Source: an uncultured Candidatus Actinomarina sp.
GTDB lineage: Bacteria; Actinomycetota; Acidimicrobiia; Actinomarinales; Actinomarinaceae
Assembly: GCA_902634185.1 (NCBI GenBank)
Contig: CACPJC010000003.1
Span: 96,001-160,000 of the forward strand
Reading direction: 5' to 3'
DNA: 64,000 nt
Below, piece by piece: positions 1,006 through 18,515 of the stretch. Made by a program: the position numbers and the translations under genes. Each line of letters opens with the position of its first letter. Position 1 is the first letter of the stretch. The notes below the pieces were generated by a model. That model saw only the letters and a program-made list of their open reading frames with translations, made no database searches and was not told the DNA's origin.

Positions 1006-1346
1006 TGGTGGAGGTGCGGGGAGTCGAACCCCGGTCCTTTTAAGCTACCCAACAGCTTCTCCGAGCGCATCTGGTGAAATACTATTGAGAGAGTCACCAG
1101 AAACAAATTCTCAATAGTTTCTACCTTAAATCTTAAAAGTTAGCCGGTAATCTAACTTAGCATCCCACATTTCGACGCCGATACTACCCGAGGTGGGAGC
1201 CCCGATAGTCGACGAGCAACAATTAAGCTGCTACGGCCAATTTAGGTTTGGCAGTTATCTTTTTTTTCCTACGTTTTTAATGAGGCCCTAGGACCCTCAG
1301 CTCGCTACTGAGAGGCTCGCTTCAAAGTCGAAGCCAGTTCACCCCC
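1006..1346 (-). ncRNA. ssrA: tmRNA (SsrA), tag peptide (A)AKPKLAVAA
   Basis: 5' GGGGGUGAACUGGCUUCGAC and 3' GGACCGGGGUUCGACUCCCCGCACCUCCACCA form an Ala-type acceptor stem (G3-U) and T-arm. The internal frame after AUAACU reads GCC AAA CCU AAA UUG GCC GUA GCA GCU UAA (1252..1223). smpB lies nearby. Confidence 0.97.
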
Positions 1347-1397: not shown

Positions 1398-2045
1398 ATG
1401 AAAATTGATAAACAAACTTTTGATTTAGAAGAAGAACTAAGTATCTCAATAGATTTTGAGGACAATGATGGTTTGATATTTATACCTAAAAATGTAAATG
1501 TAGAAATTAAAATAGCTAACTATTTTGGAAAAATAGTTATAAATAATTTATCTATTAAACATCTTGAAGATGAGCTCTCCCTGTCAAAAGTTGGATTAGA
1601 GCAAAACCTAAATAATCTAGATCTTAAACTTCTCGATAGATTTTTATTTAAGCAGTTGAGTGATAAAGCAACGTTTAATTATTCACCATTCGATTCGTTT
1701 TTAGAATATGATTTTTCTGTATATGAAAAATCAAGAAGACCGAGTGATCTTGATTGGTCTATGTTTGCATCCCTATATGTTTTTGCTTGTAATGTCATTC
1801 CCGAATCAATTAAAGTAGAGTTAACTCTTGCAAAATATTTAAGAGTATCTGAAGAAGTTTTTAAAAGACTATTAAAGAAAATTCCAGACAAAATATTTAG
1901 AAAAACAGGACACCTTGAATCTAGAGGTGGTAATTTAACTTTCGATGCTGAAGAGTTAATAAAGAAAAATCTTAACGACACTCAGGCAAAATTATTTGAA
2001 GAAAGTCCTTTTTTGAAATTTCATTCAGGTTCTGATTTGGTCTGA
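1398..2045 (+). CDS. Hypothetical protein, possible C-terminal winged HTH (DUF6214-like)
   Basis: 215-aa ORF. The C-terminus LAKYLRVSEEVFKRLLKK...RGGNLTFDAEELI loosely resembles actinobacterial HTH proteins. Confidence 0.4.
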   Translation: MKIDKQTFDLEEELSISIDFEDNDGLIFIPKNVNVEIKIANYFGKIVINNLSIKHLEDELSLSKVGLEQNLNNLDLKLLDRFLFKQLSDKATFNYSPFDSFLEYDFSVYEKSRRPSDLDWSMFASLYVFACNVIPESIKVELTLAKYLRVSEEVFKRLLKKIPDKIFRKTGHLESRGGNLTFDAEELIKKNLNDTQAKLFEESPFLKFHSGSDLV

Positions 2046-2464
2046 GCTCTGCTGACCATTGATATAACCTTACCAACATCAATTTCCCATATTTCTCTGG
2101 ATTTGAATCCTGCTTGCTCCCAAGTAACATCTTCTGTTCTACCATAAGGTTTACCTGAATATCTATTTGATAAATAATCTATGTGGTCATTTGCAGTCGA
2201 ATCTTGAACAATATTTTTAACAACACCCCTTATCTCCCAACATGTATACATATCAGATGGATGAAATATAACGAGTGAAATATTTGGTTCCTTCCTTATG
2301 TTTTCTGTTTTTTTTCTTCCTTGTTCTGTGTTGATAAGAATTTTATTATCTTTGTAATCAACCCACATTAAATGATTCTGCATCTCTTTTTCATTGATTT
2401 TGGTTGATAATGCACAAAAAGCATTGTTATCAATTGCTTGCTTAAGTTCATCTGGAAGTTGCAT
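2021..2464 (-). CDS. PPOX-class putative F420-dependent oxidoreductase
   Basis: MWVDY...INTEQGRKKTENIRKEPNISL...EIRG...HIDYLSNRYSGKPY pattern; cofD/cofE are in the same window. Confidence 0.8.
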   Translation of the reverse strand: MQLPDELKQAIDNNAFCALSTKINEKEMQNHLMWVDYKDNKILINTEQGRKKTENIRKEPNISLVIFHPSDMYTCWEIRGVVKNIVQDSTANDHIDYLSNRYSGKPYGRTEDVTWEQAGFKSREIWEIDVGKVISMVSRAQTKSEPE

Positions 2465-2494: not shown

Positions 2495-3058
2495 ATGGCA
2501 TTTATAAAATTATTCAAATTTGAAGAATCATCTGGCTTATTAAAAAAAGAGTATGAAAAAGGTATGCGCAGAGCTGGAAGAATTTGGAATGTGCTTACAA
2601 TTCAATCACAAACTCCTGAAATATTAAAAGACTCAATGAATCTATATGGATCAACAATGTTTGGTAATTCAAATATTTCAAGGTTCGATAGTGAATTATT
2701 AGCTGTCGTTACTTCTATTTCAAACGAATGTGAATATTGAATACGAGCACATTTATATGATCTTCGGTCGGAGACAGATAATCAAAAATTAGTAGATGAA
2801 ATAGCAGAGGATTGGACCAAAAGCTCTATCTCACCAATACAAATGGCAATGTGTGAATTTGCTAAAAAATTAACGGAAAATCCAAATAAAGTTAATGAAA
2901 AAGATATTGAATTATTGAGAAGTTACGATTTATCAGATAAAGATATTTCACAAATCGTACAAATTATTGCATATTTTAATTATATAAATAGAGTCGCAGA
3001 TGGACTTGGATTAGAACCAGAAGAATTCATAGATAAAAAAGGTTATAAAAACAAATAA
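2495..3058 (+). CDS. AhpD/carboxymuconolactone decarboxylase-family peroxidase-related protein, putative selenoprotein (CxxU, Sec82)
   Basis: ORFs 2495..2740 and 2843..3058 are in the same frame with one TGA (2738-2740) and no other stop between them. Read-through gives ELLAVVTSISNECEY-U-IRAH...AYFNYINRVADGLG, 187 aa. Confidence 0.85.
2753..2781 (+). promoter_or_regulatory. Candidate bacterial SECIS hairpin
   Basis: UUAU-A-UG-A-UCUUC-[GGUC]-GGAGA-CA-G-AUAA. The apical loop starts with G, with 25 nt between the UGA and the loop. Confidence 0.65.
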
Positions 3059-3096: not shown

Positions 3097-4017
3097 ATGA
3101 GTAACAACTCAAGATTAGTTATATTGTTCATTGCATTAACTGGAATAGCAGGATTGTCATTTTTTATATTTTCTGAGAATAATGTTGATCAGCAAACTAA
3201 TATCCAATCAGAGGCTGAAATTGAAACGACTACAACAATTTCAATTAATTCAACAACATCAACTTCTACTCCAACAACATTGATGGAAACAACTACAACA
3301 ACATCTACAACTAGTACGAGCACTACAACTACAACTACTATTCCACCAAATCAGACAGCAATATTTGCTACACAAGAAGAAATAAATAATAGTAAAAAAA
3401 TTTCTTATGATTACTTACAAAGTGGCTGTAAAAAAGATGAGCCTAATAATACAGATGAAGAATGGATAAAACCTCTTGAGGTATTTACATACGACGAAAA
3501 TAAAATAAATTTCAACTTAAAAATAGAGTCAACACTTCAACTAAAAGTTGATTGTATCGGAAAGCTAATCACTTCAATCCTCAATGATTCAAGAGGTTGG
3601 ATTAAAGTAACCGAGAAAGAGTTTCAGATAGTTGATAATGTCGAAAGTGAATTTGAATTCATTTTTGCATCGCCCGAAAAAACTGATGAGTTATGTTATC
3701 CACTCGAGACAAATGGAATATATTCATGTAGAAATGAACAACAAATTATTATTAATTTTTTTAGATGGGTTAATGGTGCAATTGATTTTGGATCTGATTT
3801 AGAAACGTATAGATTGTATCTTATCAATCATGAAGTTGGACATATTTTAGAATGGGGTCATGTTGGTTGTCCAAAAGAAGGTGCTTTAGCACCAGTAATG
3901 ATGCAACAAAGTAAATCTACCATGGGTTGCGAACCTTATGGATGGCCAATTTATGAAATTTTAGAAAAAGAATTTGGTATTAATACTTATTCTTATCTGC
4001 CCGAAATTGATAATTAA
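3097..4017 (+). CDS. DUF3152-domain membrane-anchored protein (putative zinc metallopeptidase) with Thr/Ser-rich linker
   Basis: N-terminal TM helix, Thr-rich stalk, ILNDSRGW, YSCRN, YRLYLINHEVGHILEWGH (HExxH) and APVMMQQS motifs. Confidence 0.8.
   Translation: MSNNSRLVILFIALTGIAGLSFFIFSENNVDQQTNIQSEAEIETTTTISINSTTSTSTPTTLMETTTTTSTTSTSTTTTTTIPPNQTAIFATQEEINNSKKISYDYLQSGCKKDEPNNTDEEWIKPLEVFTYDENKINFNLKIESTLQLKVDCIGKLITSILNDSRGWIKVTEKEFQIVDNVESEFEFIFASPEKTDELCYPLETNGIYSCRNEQQIIINFFRWVNGAIDFGSDLETYRLYLINHEVGHILEWGHVGCPKEGALAPVMMQQSKSTMGCEPYGWPIYEILEKEFGINTYSYLPEIDN
3226..3342 (+). repeat. Low-complexity Thr/Ser codon repeat (ACA/ACT)
   Basis: Encodes TTTTISINSTTSTSTPTTLMETTTTTSTTSTSTTTTTTI. 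Confidence 0.8.
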
Positions 4018-10066: not shown

Positions 10067-11163
10067 TTAATCCCTGTCTACGCCATTTTAGATACTCATT
10101 GATAAATATGTTAATATCTCCATCTAAAACTGACTGAATATTTCCAACTTCAATATTTGTTCTTGAGTCTTTAACTTGTTGATAAGGTTGCATAACGTAT
10201 GACCTAATTTGCCTACCCCAGCCAGCTTCAACTTGTTCCCCTCGTATAGAATCAAGTTTTTTTAATTTTTCTTCTTTTTCTAACAGTATTAGTTTTGATT
10301 TTAGAAGGGCCAAAGCACGAACTTTGTTTTGTAATTGTGACCTTTCTGCCTGACAAGCAACTACTATTCCTGTAGGAATATGGGTAACTCTTACTGCTGA
10401 ATCGGTTGTATTTACATGTTGACCTCCAGCTCCAGAAGATCTATAAACATCAATACGGATGTCATCATCATTTAAATCAAACTCATCCGAATCATCAATT
10501 AATGGAATAACATCAACTCCTGCAAAACTAGTATGTCTTCTTTTGTTACTATCAAAAGGACTTATTCTAACTAATCTATGAACTCCTCTTTCACTTTCTA
10601 AATTTGCATAAGCTCTGAAACTTTCTACTCTTATCGATGCAGATTTTATTCCTGCTTCTTCTCCAGAAGAAATTTCCTCTATCTCATAGCTCATTTCTAT
10701 ACTATCTAAATATCTTGTGTACATTCTTAATAACATTTCTGCCCAGTCATGAGCATCAACACCTCCCGCACCAGCATTAACTGTAAGAACAGCTGAATGA
10801 TTATCGAACTCACTTGAGTACAGAGATTCTTCCTCTAGGTCTATAATCTTTTGCTCGATTTCTTCAAATTGAGGTTTTATTTCTTCCAGTTCAGATAGAT
10901 TATCTTTGCTTAATTCTGTTAATTCTTCCAAATCTTTAATCTCATTATCTAAAGTATTTAATAAATTAATTACTTTCTCAATGTTTGAAGCATTTTTAAC
11001 AATATTTTGAGGATTTGATATTTCTGACCAAAAATCTTTTTTTGAGATTATTATATTAAGTTTTTCTAGTTCTTCTTTTTTATTATCAAAGTCAAAGATA
11101 CTCCTTGGCAGAAGTTAATCTTTCTTTAAAATTTTTTATTTTGTTTCGGATATCTTTATACAT
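10059..11163 (-). CDS. prfB: Peptide chain release factor 2, with programmed +1 frameshift
   Basis: ATG at 11163 gives MYKDIRNKIKNFKERLTSAKEYL, then CTT TGA C. The +1 frame (DFDNKKEE...) joins ORF 10059..10931, which carries SPF and GGQ motifs. Confidence 0.95.
11091..11106 (-). promoter_or_regulatory. prfB frameshift cassette (internal SD plus slippery CUU-UGA-C)
   Basis: Minus strand reads AAGGAG TAT CTT TGA C. Confidence 0.93.
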
Positions 11164-17364: not shown

Positions 17365-18084
17365 ATGATTAATAATTTTTCAGTTGTAATACCAGTATTT
17401 AATGAAGAAGAGATCTTTTTAGAATCTGCTAATAAAATTTTCAAAATTTGCCAAGAGATGAATATGCCGTTTGAAATTATTTTTTCCGAAAACGGGTCTT
17501 TAGACAACACAAAAAATCTCATTCAGGCCTTTATAGAAGATAAAGAAAATTGTTTTACGATAAATAGCAATTATGCAAACTATGGTCTTGCGTTAAAAAA
17601 TGGATTTGAAATTGCAAAAAATGATATTGTAATATCATTTGATATTGATTATTTTTCAAAAAAATTTCTTAAGCAATCATTGGAACTAGATGAGAATTAC
17701 GTAGCACTAGTTGCATCGAAAAGATTAAATGAATCTAAAGATGAAAGAACATTTATCAGAAAAATAGCAACATCAATATTTGTATTAATTTTAAAACTTT
17801 TATTTCGAACCTCACTAAGTGATACTCATGGAATGAAAGCTATAAGAAGATATAATATTCAAAAAGAAATCAATAACGTTATTTCAACACAAGATATTTT
17901 TGATACTGAACTTTTAATTAGAATAGAAAAATCAGGTTACAAAATTCTTGAAGTGCCTGCAAAAGTAAATGAGATTAGACCAAGTGTGTCTGTTATTTTT
18001 ACAAGAATTCCTAGAACACTAAAAAGTTTATTTTTTTTACGGCTTCAATTATTTAAAGAGTCTTTAAATACAAACAATTTGTAA
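17365..18084 (+). CDS. GT2 glycosyltransferase (polyprenol-phosphate sugar synthase-like)
   Basis: SVVIPVFNEE, ENGSLDNT, FDID (DxD) and FDTELL motifs. The start could be one of several upstream ATGs back to 17344. Confidence 0.8.
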   Translation: MINNFSVVIPVFNEEEIFLESANKIFKICQEMNMPFEIIFSENGSLDNTKNLIQAFIEDKENCFTINSNYANYGLALKNGFEIAKNDIVISFDIDYFSKKFLKQSLELDENYVALVASKRLNESKDERTFIRKIATSIFVLILKLLFRTSLSDTHGMKAIRRYNIQKEINNVISTQDIFDTELLIRIEKSGYKILEVPAKVNEIRPSVSVIFTRIPRTLKSLFFLRLQLFKESLNTNNL

Positions 18085-18515
18085 ATTAAATATTTGATGG
18101 GAAGAATAAATCCATGTATCAAAACAGTTGCTATAAGAAATTGTATTTCGTTATCTTGAATTGATGGTCTGATCAAGTCTATTAAAAACCATATAAACAA
18201 TGGAACAACTAAGTTGATTAAATTAGTAATCAAAAATTTAACAAATTCTTTTAATCCCCCCTCATATATAGATAATTTAAAAATAATTCGTCTAGACAAA
18301 AAATATGAAACTATAACTCCAATTGAAAAAGCAAAAATATTTGTTAAATAAGTTCTTAAAGGAATCTCAATTGAATAAAAAACAAAAAATTGAAATAAAT
18401 AGCTTATTCCAAGACCAAATACTAAATTGAATCCACCAACAATATACGTTCTTAATAGTTGCGCATAGGTGGAATCACCTCTTAATAAATTTGAATTTTT
18501 AAGTTTTTTTAACAT
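18045..18515 (-). CDS. GtrA-family membrane protein (putative lipid-linked sugar flippase)
   Basis: Four TM segments, QLLRTYIVGG, SYFLSRRIIF and C-terminal KLFVFK pattern. Confidence 0.7.
   Translation of the reverse strand: MLKKLKNSNLLRGDSTYAQLLRTYIVGGFNLVFGLGISYLFQFFVFYSIEIPLRTYLTNIFAFSIGVIVSYFLSRRIIFKLSIYEGGLKEFVKFLITNLINLVVPLFIWFLIDLIRPSIQDNEIQFLIATVLIHGFILPIKYLIYKLFVFKDSLNN

What the first reader, a model, noticed from the sequence alone, without database searches (positions are those of the whole stretch)
2495..3058. Hidden selenoprotein: AhpD/CMD-like peroxidase with C-E-Y-UGA redox motif and SECIS-like hairpin
Seen: two same-frame ORFs separated by one TGA. It sits exactly at the second Cys of the family's CxxCxxxH motif (NECEY*IRAH), with no other stop. 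A hairpin follows, its G-initiated loop (UCUUC-GGUC-GGAGA) 25 nt after the UGA, built from locally GC-rich codons (CTT CGG TCG GAG) unusual for this AT-rich DNA. Known: Sec is decoded at UGA with a directly downstream bacterial SECIS, and AhpD-like CxxU selenoproteins have been described from marine metagenomes. Inference: this streamlined actinobacterium uses selenocysteine, or another UGA read-through route, for an antioxidant enzyme that standard annotation would split or call a pseudogene.
Basis: partly seen in the sequence, partly recalled or inferred. Interest (0 to 1): 0.85.

Follow-up and report, generated by a model that had tools for sequence, protein, structure and literature searches.

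The report
Selenocysteine AhpD-like redox enzyme gene
This is one intact gene for a small antioxidant-type redox enzyme whose in-frame TGA almost certainly codes for selenocysteine, a member of a selenoprotein family already described from ocean metagenomes.

Summary
Window 2495-3058 (+) is one 187-codon gene with a single in-frame TGA (2738-2740) at the second Cys of the CxxCxxxH motif of an AhpD-like "peroxidase-related enzyme" (TIGR01926, 135.6 bits).

- **TGA conservation:** the TGA is kept in 19 of 19 full-length same-genus homologs. It is also kept in 69 of 71 homologs from other lineages.
- **SECIS hairpin:** a 5-bp hairpin with a GGUC loop lies 25 nt downstream (2761-2774). It is built from the genome's rarest codons, and CGG-TCG-GAG is invariant in 19 of 19. 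Across 89 sequences the stem shows compensatory changes.
- **Sec machinery:** the genome carries selA, selB (with the SECIS-binding wing domain), selD (itself with a Sec codon) and tRNA-Sec(UCA).
- **Genetic code:** TGA is otherwise an ordinary stop, ending 152 of 644 long ORFs.

The nearest named records are "Candidatus Actinomarina".

The family is already in print as a CxxU selenoprotein (Sargasso Sea 2005, GOS 2008, and a 2026 review that lists TIGR01926). A 2026 preprint reports Sec machinery in Actinomarina. This is therefore a new member of a known kind: a sound annotation fix, not a new mechanism. Selenium incorporation itself was not shown here.

The parts
2495..3058 (+). Complete coding sequence (187 codons plus TAA) of an AhpD-like / peroxidase-related selenoprotein
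   Evidence: TIGR01926 scores 135.6 bits against a cut-off of 81.8 and Pfam CMD 32.3 bits. The AlphaFold2 model has pLDDT 86.2 and TM about 0.8 to 3c1l, 2pfx and 6k40.
2738..2740 (+). In-frame TGA, codon 82, read as selenocysteine (second position of C-E-Y-U)
   Evidence: TGA stands here in 19 of 19 full-length genus homologs and in 78 of 80 loci from genome contigs. It aligns with Cys in 6k40 and 3c1l.
2729..2731 (+). Cys79 codon (TGT), first position of the CxxU motif
   Evidence: TGT in 16 and TGC in 3 of the 19 genus sequences.
2693..2695 (+). Glu67 codon, 12 residues before Cys79, at the proton-relay Glu position of AhpD-type sites
   Evidence: Invariant in the 26-sequence alignment A1. 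The spacing matches E36/C48/Y50/C51/H55 of PA0269 and E118/C130/H132/C133/H137 of M. tuberculosis AhpD, as given in PMC3141380.
2750..2752 (+). His86 codon of CxxUxxxH
   Evidence: Invariant in A1. Spacing as.
2761..2774 (+). SECIS-like hairpin: stem 2761-2765 with 2770-2774, apical loop GGUC at 2766-2769
   Evidence: RNAalifold predicts this stem independently. Codons 91-93 (CGG TCG GAG) are invariant in 19 of 19, and the longest invariant nucleotide run in the gene (11 nt) lies here. Pair 24-37 of alignment A3 reads C-G in 59 sequences, U-A in 21, U-G in 3 and unpaired in 3.

Best explanation
The gene encodes a 187-residue all-helical AhpD-like thiol/selenol oxidoreductase. It belongs to the TIGR01926 'peroxidase-related enzyme' subfamily of the CMD/AhpD superfamily. 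The second redox residue of the E...C-x-Y-C-x-x-x-H active site is selenocysteine. During translation, SelB carrying Sec-tRNA(UCA) is recruited by the short hairpin 20-36 nt downstream of the UGA, and Sec is inserted instead of termination. The enzyme then cycles between a selenol/thiol state and a selenenylsulfide (Cys79-Sec82) state. It either reduces a hydroperoxide directly or re-reduces an oxidised partner such as a peroxiredoxin. Shown here: the gene structure, the family, the fold, the conservation of the TGA and the hairpin, and the presence of the machinery. Inferred: actual Sec insertion, the substrate, and the reductant.
For: (1) There is a single in-frame TGA at the CxxC second position.
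(2) The TGA is kept in 19 of 19 full-length homologs found in 23 genomes of the genus, own genome included, at 71-88% protein identity while synonymous sites vary freely. Of the other four genomes, three had no match and one had a 37-residue fragment at a contig end.
(3) Of 80 loci from the species-representative collection, 78 have TGA, 1 has TGC and 1 was unresolved. Among the 71 that are not Actinomarina, 69 have TGA. By record title these are Acidimicrobiia, Chloroflexota, Acidobacteriota, Latescibacterota, Planctomycetota, Marinimicrobia and others.
(4) Hairpin conservation is strong. Only 6 of 83 amino-acid-invariant degenerate codons are also codon-invariant, and three of these are the consecutive codons 91-93, which use the rarest Arg and Ser codons.
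(5) Covariation supports the stem. In 86 distinct sequences, pair 24-37 is C-G in 59, U-A in 21 and U-G in 3. Pair 25-36 has one C-G to U-A switch. None of 500 shuffles reached the observed covariation score, and pairing falls from 81% to 34-47% when the partner is slid by 1-3 columns.
(6) The machinery is present: selD at 371 bits with U in GAGUACK; selA at 374 bits; an adjacent 559-aa EF-Tu-type GTPase with a SelB-wing_3 domain at 48 bits; and tRNA-Sec at 74.6 bits with anticodon TCA.
(7) TGA is a normal stop. It ends 152 of 644 ORFs of 200 aa or more. The tRNA-Trp anticodon is CCA, and the only TCA anticodon belongs to tRNA-Sec.
(8) Four further genes in the genome show the same pattern of a conserved TGA at a redox motif.
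(9) Contigs from metatranscriptome libraries of two studies bridge the TGA unchanged. This is weak evidence, because DNA can be present in such libraries.
(10) The family is listed in print as a CxxU selenoprotein.
Against: No experiment shows selenium in this protein. The hairpin in this genome is small and weak: 5 bp including a U-G pair, -4.0 kcal/mol, and a fold z-score of only -0.26. The two outer pairs present in GC-rich relatives are lost in the genus. Within the genus the stem is almost invariant, so covariation comes only from the wider set. Many of the U-A cases there are kin, so the number of independent events is small, roughly five lineages by eye. The hairpin overlaps a conserved peptide, D-L-R-S/A-E, so part of the nucleotide conservation is protein-level. 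SelB scores below NCBIfam's cut-off (208 against 242 bits). No Rfam family matched the region at gathering threshold. The function is weakly grounded: there is no ahpC or other conserved neighbour, and biochemical evidence for this subfamily is limited to the D. radiodurans CxxC protein, seen here only through a review.
Confidence: 0.93

Rival explanations
1. Pseudogene or sequencing/assembly error: the TGA is a disabling mutation or a miscall of TGT/TGC, and no full-length protein is made.
For: A single base separates TGA from TGT/TGC. Gene callers do split the gene in some public records.
Against: The same TGA is present in 19 of 19 genus homologs from separate assemblies. It is also present in 69 of 71 homologs from other lineages and in metagenome and metatranscriptome contigs. 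The reading frame is intact on both sides, with synonymous-type variation.
Confidence: 0.01
2. Genome-wide or local recoding of TGA to a standard amino acid (Trp as in table 4, Gly as in table 25), or near-cognate read-through without the Sec system.
For: Public metagenome gene calls show W at position 82. That is the output of a table-4 gene call on short AT-rich contigs.
Against: TGA ends 152 of 644 long ORFs. tRNA-Trp carries CCA, and the only tRNA with a TCA anticodon is tRNA-Sec. The position aligns with catalytic Cys, not Trp or Gly, in homologs and solved structures. A full Sec apparatus is present.
Confidence: 0.03
3. It is a real Sec protein with a different chemistry from peroxide defence. 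Examples are a reductive dehalogenase like the AhpD-fold debrominase Bmp8, or a general selenol-disulfide reductase for a non-peroxiredoxin substrate.
For: The model also matches Bmp8 (6ohj/6ohi, TM 0.78, 16% identity). There is no ahpC neighbour and no conserved partner gene in 71 loci. The family name 'peroxidase-related' is an annotation, not an assay.
Against: The closest sequence and structure relatives are the TIGR01926-type proteins 6k40, 3c1l, 2pfx and 2oyo. Loss of the D. radiodurans member increases H2O2 sensitivity, according to a review. The E/C/Y/C/H relay of AhpD-type peroxidases is complete here.
Confidence: 0.15

Closest known systems
'AhpD-like protein' / 'AhpD-like 1' selenoprotein family of marine metagenomes (COG2128, CxxU; TIGR01926 in a 2026 review table)
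   Same: Same domain family, same CxxU motif with Sec at the second position, same marine surface habitat, and a SECIS with a guanosine in a small apical loop. There were 27 sequences in the Sargasso Sea set and 299 in GOS (passages and tables read).
   Different: Nothing essential differs. Those reports are of unassigned reads, whereas here the gene sits in a genome with its Sec machinery and in a named lineage. I could not compare sequences with theirs, since figures and supplements are not held.
DR1765 of Deinococcus radiodurans (PDB 6k40) and the structural-genomics proteins 3c1l, 2pfx, 2oyo and 2prr
   Same: Best PDB sequence matches (E 1e-35 to 2e-25) and best fold matches (TM 0.77-0.82). 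The motif sits at the same place (NRCVYCAVSH, NHCYYCLTAH).
   Different: They carry Cys, not Sec, at 26-34% identity. They lack the D-L-R-S/A-E segment that carries the hairpin (one search shows HGAILRIRAK in the Cys forms).
Mycobacterium tuberculosis AhpD (PDB 1knc)
   Same: Same superfamily, and the same proton-relay layout of Glu, Cys, His/Tyr, Cys, His.
   Different: The relation is distant (TM 0.58, 8% identity). The active site lies in a different part of the chain. MtAhpD is encoded next to ahpC, which is not the case here.
NF041238 AhpD_rel_CFYUT (seleno)protein ('hypothetical protein 1' of the Sargasso Sea)
   Same: A CxxU selenoprotein with an AhpD-related domain.
   Different: The score is only 51 bits against a cut-off of 175, and only the C-terminal 126 positions of a 357-position model are matched. 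This gene is not a member.

Membership tests
Bacterial selenoprotein gene (UGA decoded as Sec) | In-frame UGA aligned with Cys in homologs | tested here: met
   U82 aligns with Cys in 6k40 and 3c1l, in L039/L043/L044/L046, and in P0046-P0053 and L088.
Bacterial selenoprotein gene (UGA decoded as Sec) | Stem-loop just downstream of the UGA with a small apical loop containing G (feature as stated in PMC1088965) | tested here: met
   The stem is 5 bp in this genus and 6-7 bp in GC-rich relatives. The loop is GGUC or CG(G/U)GNN, starting 25 nt after the UGA. It is conserved and partly covarying. It is weak energetically in this genome.
Bacterial selenoprotein gene (UGA decoded as Sec) | selA, selB, selC and selD in the same genome | tested here: met
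   selB is below the NCBIfam cut-off, but it is adjacent to selA and carries SelB-wing_3.
Bacterial selenoprotein gene (UGA decoded as Sec) | Selenium actually incorporated at the UGA | not testable with these tools
   Needs 75Se labelling or mass spectrometry.
TIGR01926 peroxidase-related enzyme (AhpD-like, COG2128 type) | Score above the curated cut-off over the full length | tested here: met
   135.6 bits against 81.8, covering residues 16-176 of the protein and positions 15-176 of the 178-position model.
TIGR01926 peroxidase-related enzyme (AhpD-like, COG2128 type) | All-helical AhpD/CMD fold | tested here: met
   The model has pLDDT 86.2 and pTM 0.83, with nine helices. TM is 0.77-0.82 to 3c1l, 2pfx, 6k40, 2prr and 2oyo.
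TIGR01926 peroxidase-related enzyme (AhpD-like, COG2128 type) | Glu ... C-x-(Y/H)-C-x-x-x-H relay residues | tested here: met
   E67, C79, Y81, U82 and H86 are present. E67, Y81 and H86 are invariant in 26 sequences. The spacing is as in PMC3141380.
TIGR01926 peroxidase-related enzyme (AhpD-like, COG2128 type) | Hydroperoxide- or peroxiredoxin-reducing activity | not testable with these tools
   The only evidence is indirect: the D. radiodurans mutant phenotype as reported in a review.
Canonical AhpC-AhpD system (M. tuberculosis type) | ahpD encoded beside ahpC, with close similarity to MtAhpD | tested here: not met
   The neighbours are a PNPOx-like gene and a DUF3152 gene. The five AhpC-TSA family hits in the genome lie elsewhere. 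1knc matches at TM 0.58 and 8% identity.
NF041238 AhpD_rel_CFYUT (seleno)protein | Score above the curated cut-off | tested here: not met
   51 bits against 175.
Rfam RNA families (any, including SECIS models) | Match at gathering score in the window | tested here: not met
   Only tmRNA matched. The 2026 preprint also reports that Rfam SECIS models fail on these genomes.

The most novel reading that the evidence does not exclude
The Actinomarina SECIS may be close to a minimal working bacterial SECIS: a 14-nt hairpin of 5 bp plus a GGUC tetraloop, at -4 to -7.5 kcal/mol. It is held in place in a 32% GC genome by that genome's rarest codons and is read by a divergent SelB. The hairpin and the peptide it encodes, D-L-R-S/A-E, are co-conserved in Sec forms whose record titles name many different phyla, and the core is degraded in the one Cys form whose DNA I had. 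The peptide motif may therefore be imposed by the RNA element, with gene and SECIS spreading between phyla as a single unit.
Probability: 0.3. Interest if true: 0.45.

Novelty: new member of a known kind. Interest (0 to 1): 0.3.

Why it matters
The result turns two ORF fragments, or a supposed pseudogene, into one functional gene. This gene is the only CMD/AhpD-family gene found in this roughly 1-Mb genome.

Together with SelD, a SelW-like protein and two thioredoxin-fold proteins, it makes a five-member selenoproteome, all redox-type. The nearest named relatives belong to one of the most abundant surface-ocean bacterial groups, so antioxidant capacity in that lineage would depend on selenium supply.

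It also gives functional names to selenoproteins that the 2026 preprint's main text describes as mostly uncharacterised. Finally, it supplies a well-conserved small SECIS that could be used to improve bacterial SECIS models for AT-rich genomes.

Tried and rejected
**Folding the single sequence.** This gave no signal (z = -0.26), and its minimum-energy structure is not the conserved hairpin. I relied on comparative data instead.

**Rfam scan of the window.** Only tmRNA matched.

**First extraction scripts.** The first script missed loci stored on the minus strand; one search corrected this. The CDS extraction failed for L023, which starts MTFI rather than MAFI; one search corrected this.

**Counter line.** It counts the first regex hit per locus and so prints 75 TGA. 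Reading the rows at the homologous site gives 78 TGA, 1 TGC (L088) and 1 locus with no motif found (L120, not examined further).

**Neighbour analysis for a functional partner.** GC-rich loci produce many spurious long ORFs, so the clusters are noisy. The most frequent real neighbour clusters occur in at most 14 of 71 loci (S10-peptidase-like), followed by 11 of 71 (AraC/Ada-MGMT-like). No partner can be inferred.

**OsmC family.** It was not found in the own genome, which is 83% complete. This is not evidence of absence.

**GtrA-like ORF at window 17940-18515 (-).** It looked like a TGA read-through candidate, but the Pfam domain ends before the TGA, so this is an ordinary stop. Candidates at window 10906-11115, C12:53-325, C12:338-670 and C8:7-324 had no family match and were dropped.

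**Metatranscriptome contigs.** They show presence in RNA libraries only. They give no strand, no expression level and no proof of transcription. Run X20's contig has only 14 letters left of the TGA and was not counted as bridging. Parts without cover are not interpreted.

**Papers.** I read passages only (find mode) of 10.64898/2026.04.03.716425, PMC2398784, PMC1088965, PMC13188914, PMC8945050 and PMC3141380. I saw no figures or supplements. The supplements of the 2026 preprint may list this very protein among its 69 deep-Sep families. Two points are recalled and come from no call: that Cys133 is the attacking residue of M. tuberculosis AhpD, and that the E. coli fdhF SECIS has a GGUC-type loop.

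Full report
**Observation**

ORFs 2495-2740 and 2843-3058 share a frame. Reading 2495-3058 with TGA=U gives 187 residues with one internal stop, U82 at 2738-2740, in the context NECEYUIRAH. The hairpin UCUUC-GGUC-GGAGA lies at 2761-2774, and its loop starts 25 nt after the UGA.

The codons that build it are rare in this 32% GC genome. In 644 ORFs of 200 aa or more, CGG is 1.1% of Arg codons, TCG 4.6% of Ser, CTC 4.8% of Leu and GAG 24% of Glu. Folding the single sequence is not significant (z = -0.26). The hairpin alone is only -4.0 kcal/mol.

**What the protein is**

The read-through product scores 135.6 bits on TIGR01926 'peroxidase-related enzyme' (cut-off 81.8) and 32.3 bits on Pfam CMD. 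It is not a member of NF041238, where it scores 51 bits against a cut-off of 175.

A profile of 26 homologs finds the PDB entries 6k40 (D. radiodurans AhpD-like), 3c1l, 2oyo, 2pfx and 2prr at E 1e-35 to 2e-25. Their CxxC motif sits exactly on C79 and U82. An AlphaFold2 model (pLDDT 86.2, pTM 0.83, nine helices) matches these structures at TM 0.77-0.82. M. tuberculosis AhpD matches only at TM 0.58.

E67, C79, Y81, U82 and H86 reproduce the spacing of the AhpD proton relay: E36/C48/Y50/C51/H55 in PA0269 and E118/C130/H132/C133/H137 in MtAhpD (passages of PMC3141380). E67, Y81 and H86 are invariant in the 26-sequence alignment.

**Is the TGA real and conserved?**

One search examined 39 genomes: the own genome, 22 others of its genus, and 16 of its class.
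- 19 genomes of the genus, own included, have a full-length match, each with exactly one TGA.
- Three genus genomes had no match (completeness 87, 87 and 77%).
- One had a 37-residue fragment at a contig end.

In all 19 full-length matches the TGA is codon 82.

The best 80 of 583 confirmed loci from the species-representative collection give TGA in 78, TGC in 1 (L088) and an unresolved motif in 1 (L120). Nine of the 80 are Actinomarina records, and some duplicate loci. Of the other 71, 69 have TGA. Their titles name Acidimicrobiia, Chloroflexota, Acidobacteriota, Latescibacterota, Planctomycetota, Marinimicrobia and others.

More distant paralog-type relatives (24-32% identity) carry CxxC with TGC. 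A group at 45-47% identity carries T-x-x-C, that is, Cys at the Sec position with the first Cys lost.

Public metagenome proteins at 72-92% identity show W at position 82. This is what a table-4 gene call makes of a TGA. Others are 104-residue fragments that begin just after the TGA. Standard annotation therefore does mis-handle the gene.

**The hairpin**

Among the 19 genus sequences, 83 codons are amino-acid-invariant and degenerate. Only 6 of these are also codon-invariant, and three of them are the consecutive codons 91-93, CGG TCG GAG. The longest invariant nucleotide run in the gene (11 nt) lies there, and the next longest is 5 nt. RNAalifold on 21 sequences predicts exactly the 5-bp stem with the GGUC loop.

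I then aligned 89 sequences: 14 of the 19 genus loci (near-duplicates left out), L036 and L037, and 73 loci. In these:
- The stem extends to GACCUC/GAGGUC in GC-rich genomes.
- Pair 24-37 is C-G in 59 of 86 distinct rows, U-A in 21, U-G in 3 and unpaired in 3.
- Pair 25-36 has one C-G to U-A switch.
- 81% of cells pair, against 34-47% when the partner is slid by 1-3 columns.
- None of 500 shuffles reaches the observed covariation score.

There are caveats. Many U-A cases are kin, the shuffle control ignores relatedness, and the hairpin overlaps the conserved peptide D-L-R-S/A-E.

In the one Cys form with DNA available (L088), the three central pairs become U-G, A-A and U-G, and the hairpin drops to -5.2 kcal/mol. 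The mean for GC-rich Sec forms is -9.9 kcal/mol. This is a single case and only suggestive.

**Sec machinery and genetic code**

The own genome is 974 kb in 16 contigs and 83% complete. It holds:
- selD at 371 bits, with an in-frame TGA in GAGUACK.
- selA at 374 bits (Pfam SelA 323 bits).
- Directly downstream of selA, a 559-aa GTPase covering positions 2-572 of the SelB model. It scores 208 bits, below the 242 cut-off, and has a SelB-wing_3 domain at 48 bits.
- tRNA-Sec at 74.6 bits with anticodon TCA.

ARAGORN finds 39 tRNAs. Trp has the CCA anticodon only, and the sole TCA anticodon belongs to tRNA-Sec. TGA ends 152 of 644 long ORFs, so the organism does not use table 4 or table 25.

**Context and function**

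The neighbours are a divergent PNPOx-like gene (2021-2464, minus strand) and a DUF3152 gene (3097-4017). No neighbour is conserved across 71 loci from other lineages.

The genome has five AhpC-TSA family hits elsewhere, no second CMD-family gene, and no OsmC hit. A review reports that loss of the D. radiodurans homolog raises H2O2 sensitivity and that its CxxC cysteines matter (passages of PMC8945050).

I therefore read the protein as a selenol/thiol oxidoreductase of peroxide defence, acting through a Cys79-Sec82 selenenylsulfide. Substrate and reductant are unknown. A Bmp8-like dehalogenase chemistry is a minor alternative.

**Expression hint**

Contigs from metatranscriptome libraries of two studies (X15: 2594-2862; X17: 2555-2877) bridge the TGA with no change at 2738-2740 or in the hairpin. 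The differences nearby are at positions 2744, 2746 and 2755. The 2744 and 2746 changes, read together, and the 2755 change leave the amino acids unchanged. Such libraries can contain DNA, so this is weak evidence.

**Lineage and prior knowledge**

The nearest titled records (92% and 88% identity) are 'uncultured Candidatus Actinomarina sp.'. One of them covers the same contig range as a genome that the tool labels 'same genus'.

- The Sargasso Sea paper lists 'AhpD-like protein, COG2128, CXXU, 27 sequences'.
- The GOS paper lists 'AhpD-like 1, COG2128, CxxU, 299 sequences in 37 samples'.
- A 2026 review table lists 'AhpD-like protein, TIGR01926, CxxU'.
- A 2026 preprint reports selA, selB, selC and selD in all 84 complete Actinomarina genomes. 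It predicts about 5 selenoproteins per genome and calls most of them uncharacterised.

The preprint's main text contains none of the words AhpD, peroxid-, thioredoxin or SelW. I could not see its supplements.

A search for Actinomarina plus selenocysteine found only that preprint. A search for AhpD-like plus selenoprotein found 9 papers.

**Verdict**

This is a real selenoprotein gene, correctly spotted. It belongs to a family long known to use Sec in the surface ocean, in a lineage whose Sec use has just been reported. The novelty class is 'new member of a known kind'. The residual points of interest are the very small rare-codon SECIS and the functional naming of the lineage's five-member selenoproteome.

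Noticed in passing
own genome G000:C12:1183-1425 (+) (locus L134:1183-1425): An 80-codon gene of the Rdx/SelW-like family (Pfam 68.4 bits) has an in-frame TGA in C-I-V-U and a hairpin with an AGUUA loop after it. A single TGA is kept in 20 of the 21 genus genomes searched. Counted from its second Met it is 78 aa, so it may be the '78 aa, uncharacterised' top family of the 2026 preprint. That link is a guess and was not checked.
   Followed up: partly
own genome G000:C5:13575-14036 (+) (locus L132): A lipoprotein-like thioredoxin-fold (TlpA/Redoxin-type) gene has TGA in W-A-D-Y-U-G-I-C (UxxC). The Pfam domains span the TGA, and a strong hairpin follows it. The best match has one TGA in 19 of the 21 genus genomes searched; in one of these a TAA is also present.
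   Followed up: partly
own genome G000:C1:108460-108933 (-) (locus L133): A membrane-anchored thioredoxin-like gene has TGA in S-D-Y-U-L-G-C (UxxC). One TGA is kept in 19 of the 21 genus genomes searched. With SelD and the AhpD-like gene this makes five selenoprotein genes in this genome.
   Followed up: partly
own genome G000:C7:19503-20525 (+) (locus L001:1498-2520): selD is itself a selenoprotein gene (GAGUACK), followed by a CUCAC/GUGAG hairpin 11 nt after the UGA.
   Followed up: partly
proteins P0046-P0053 and locus L088:1744-1806: The only Cys forms inside the Sec clade read N-S-T-R-Y-C. Cys replaces Sec, and the first Cys of the motif is lost at the same time (TxxC). The hairpin core is degraded in L088.
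   Followed up: partly
proteins P0050 and P0056 (metagenome gene calls): Two homologs at 42-48% identity show Arg at the Sec position (C-D-Y-R, C-H-Y-R). It is unclear whether this is a real CGA/AGA codon or a translation artefact. I had no DNA to check.
   Followed up: no
protein P0039 (140 aa): A close homolog lacks residues about 57-104, which is the whole active-site and hairpin segment. It may be a deletion allele, a misassembly or a gene-model artefact.
   Followed up: no
genomes G001, G008 and G021 (same genus): No homolog of the AhpD-like gene was found in these three genomes. One of them is a single 1.0-Mb contig that does carry the SelW-like and both thioredoxin-like TGA genes. The AhpD-like selenoprotein may therefore not be universal in the genus.
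   Followed up: no
window 1006-1346 (-): A tmRNA gene (Rfam 157 bits; tag peptide AKPKLAVAA) lies about 1.1 kb upstream of the finding.
   Followed up: no
window 3097-4017 (+): The downstream gene encodes a DUF3152 protein with a signal/anchor segment, a long Thr/Ser-rich linker and an HEVGH motif, which suggests a secreted or surface metalloprotease-like protein.
   Followed up: no
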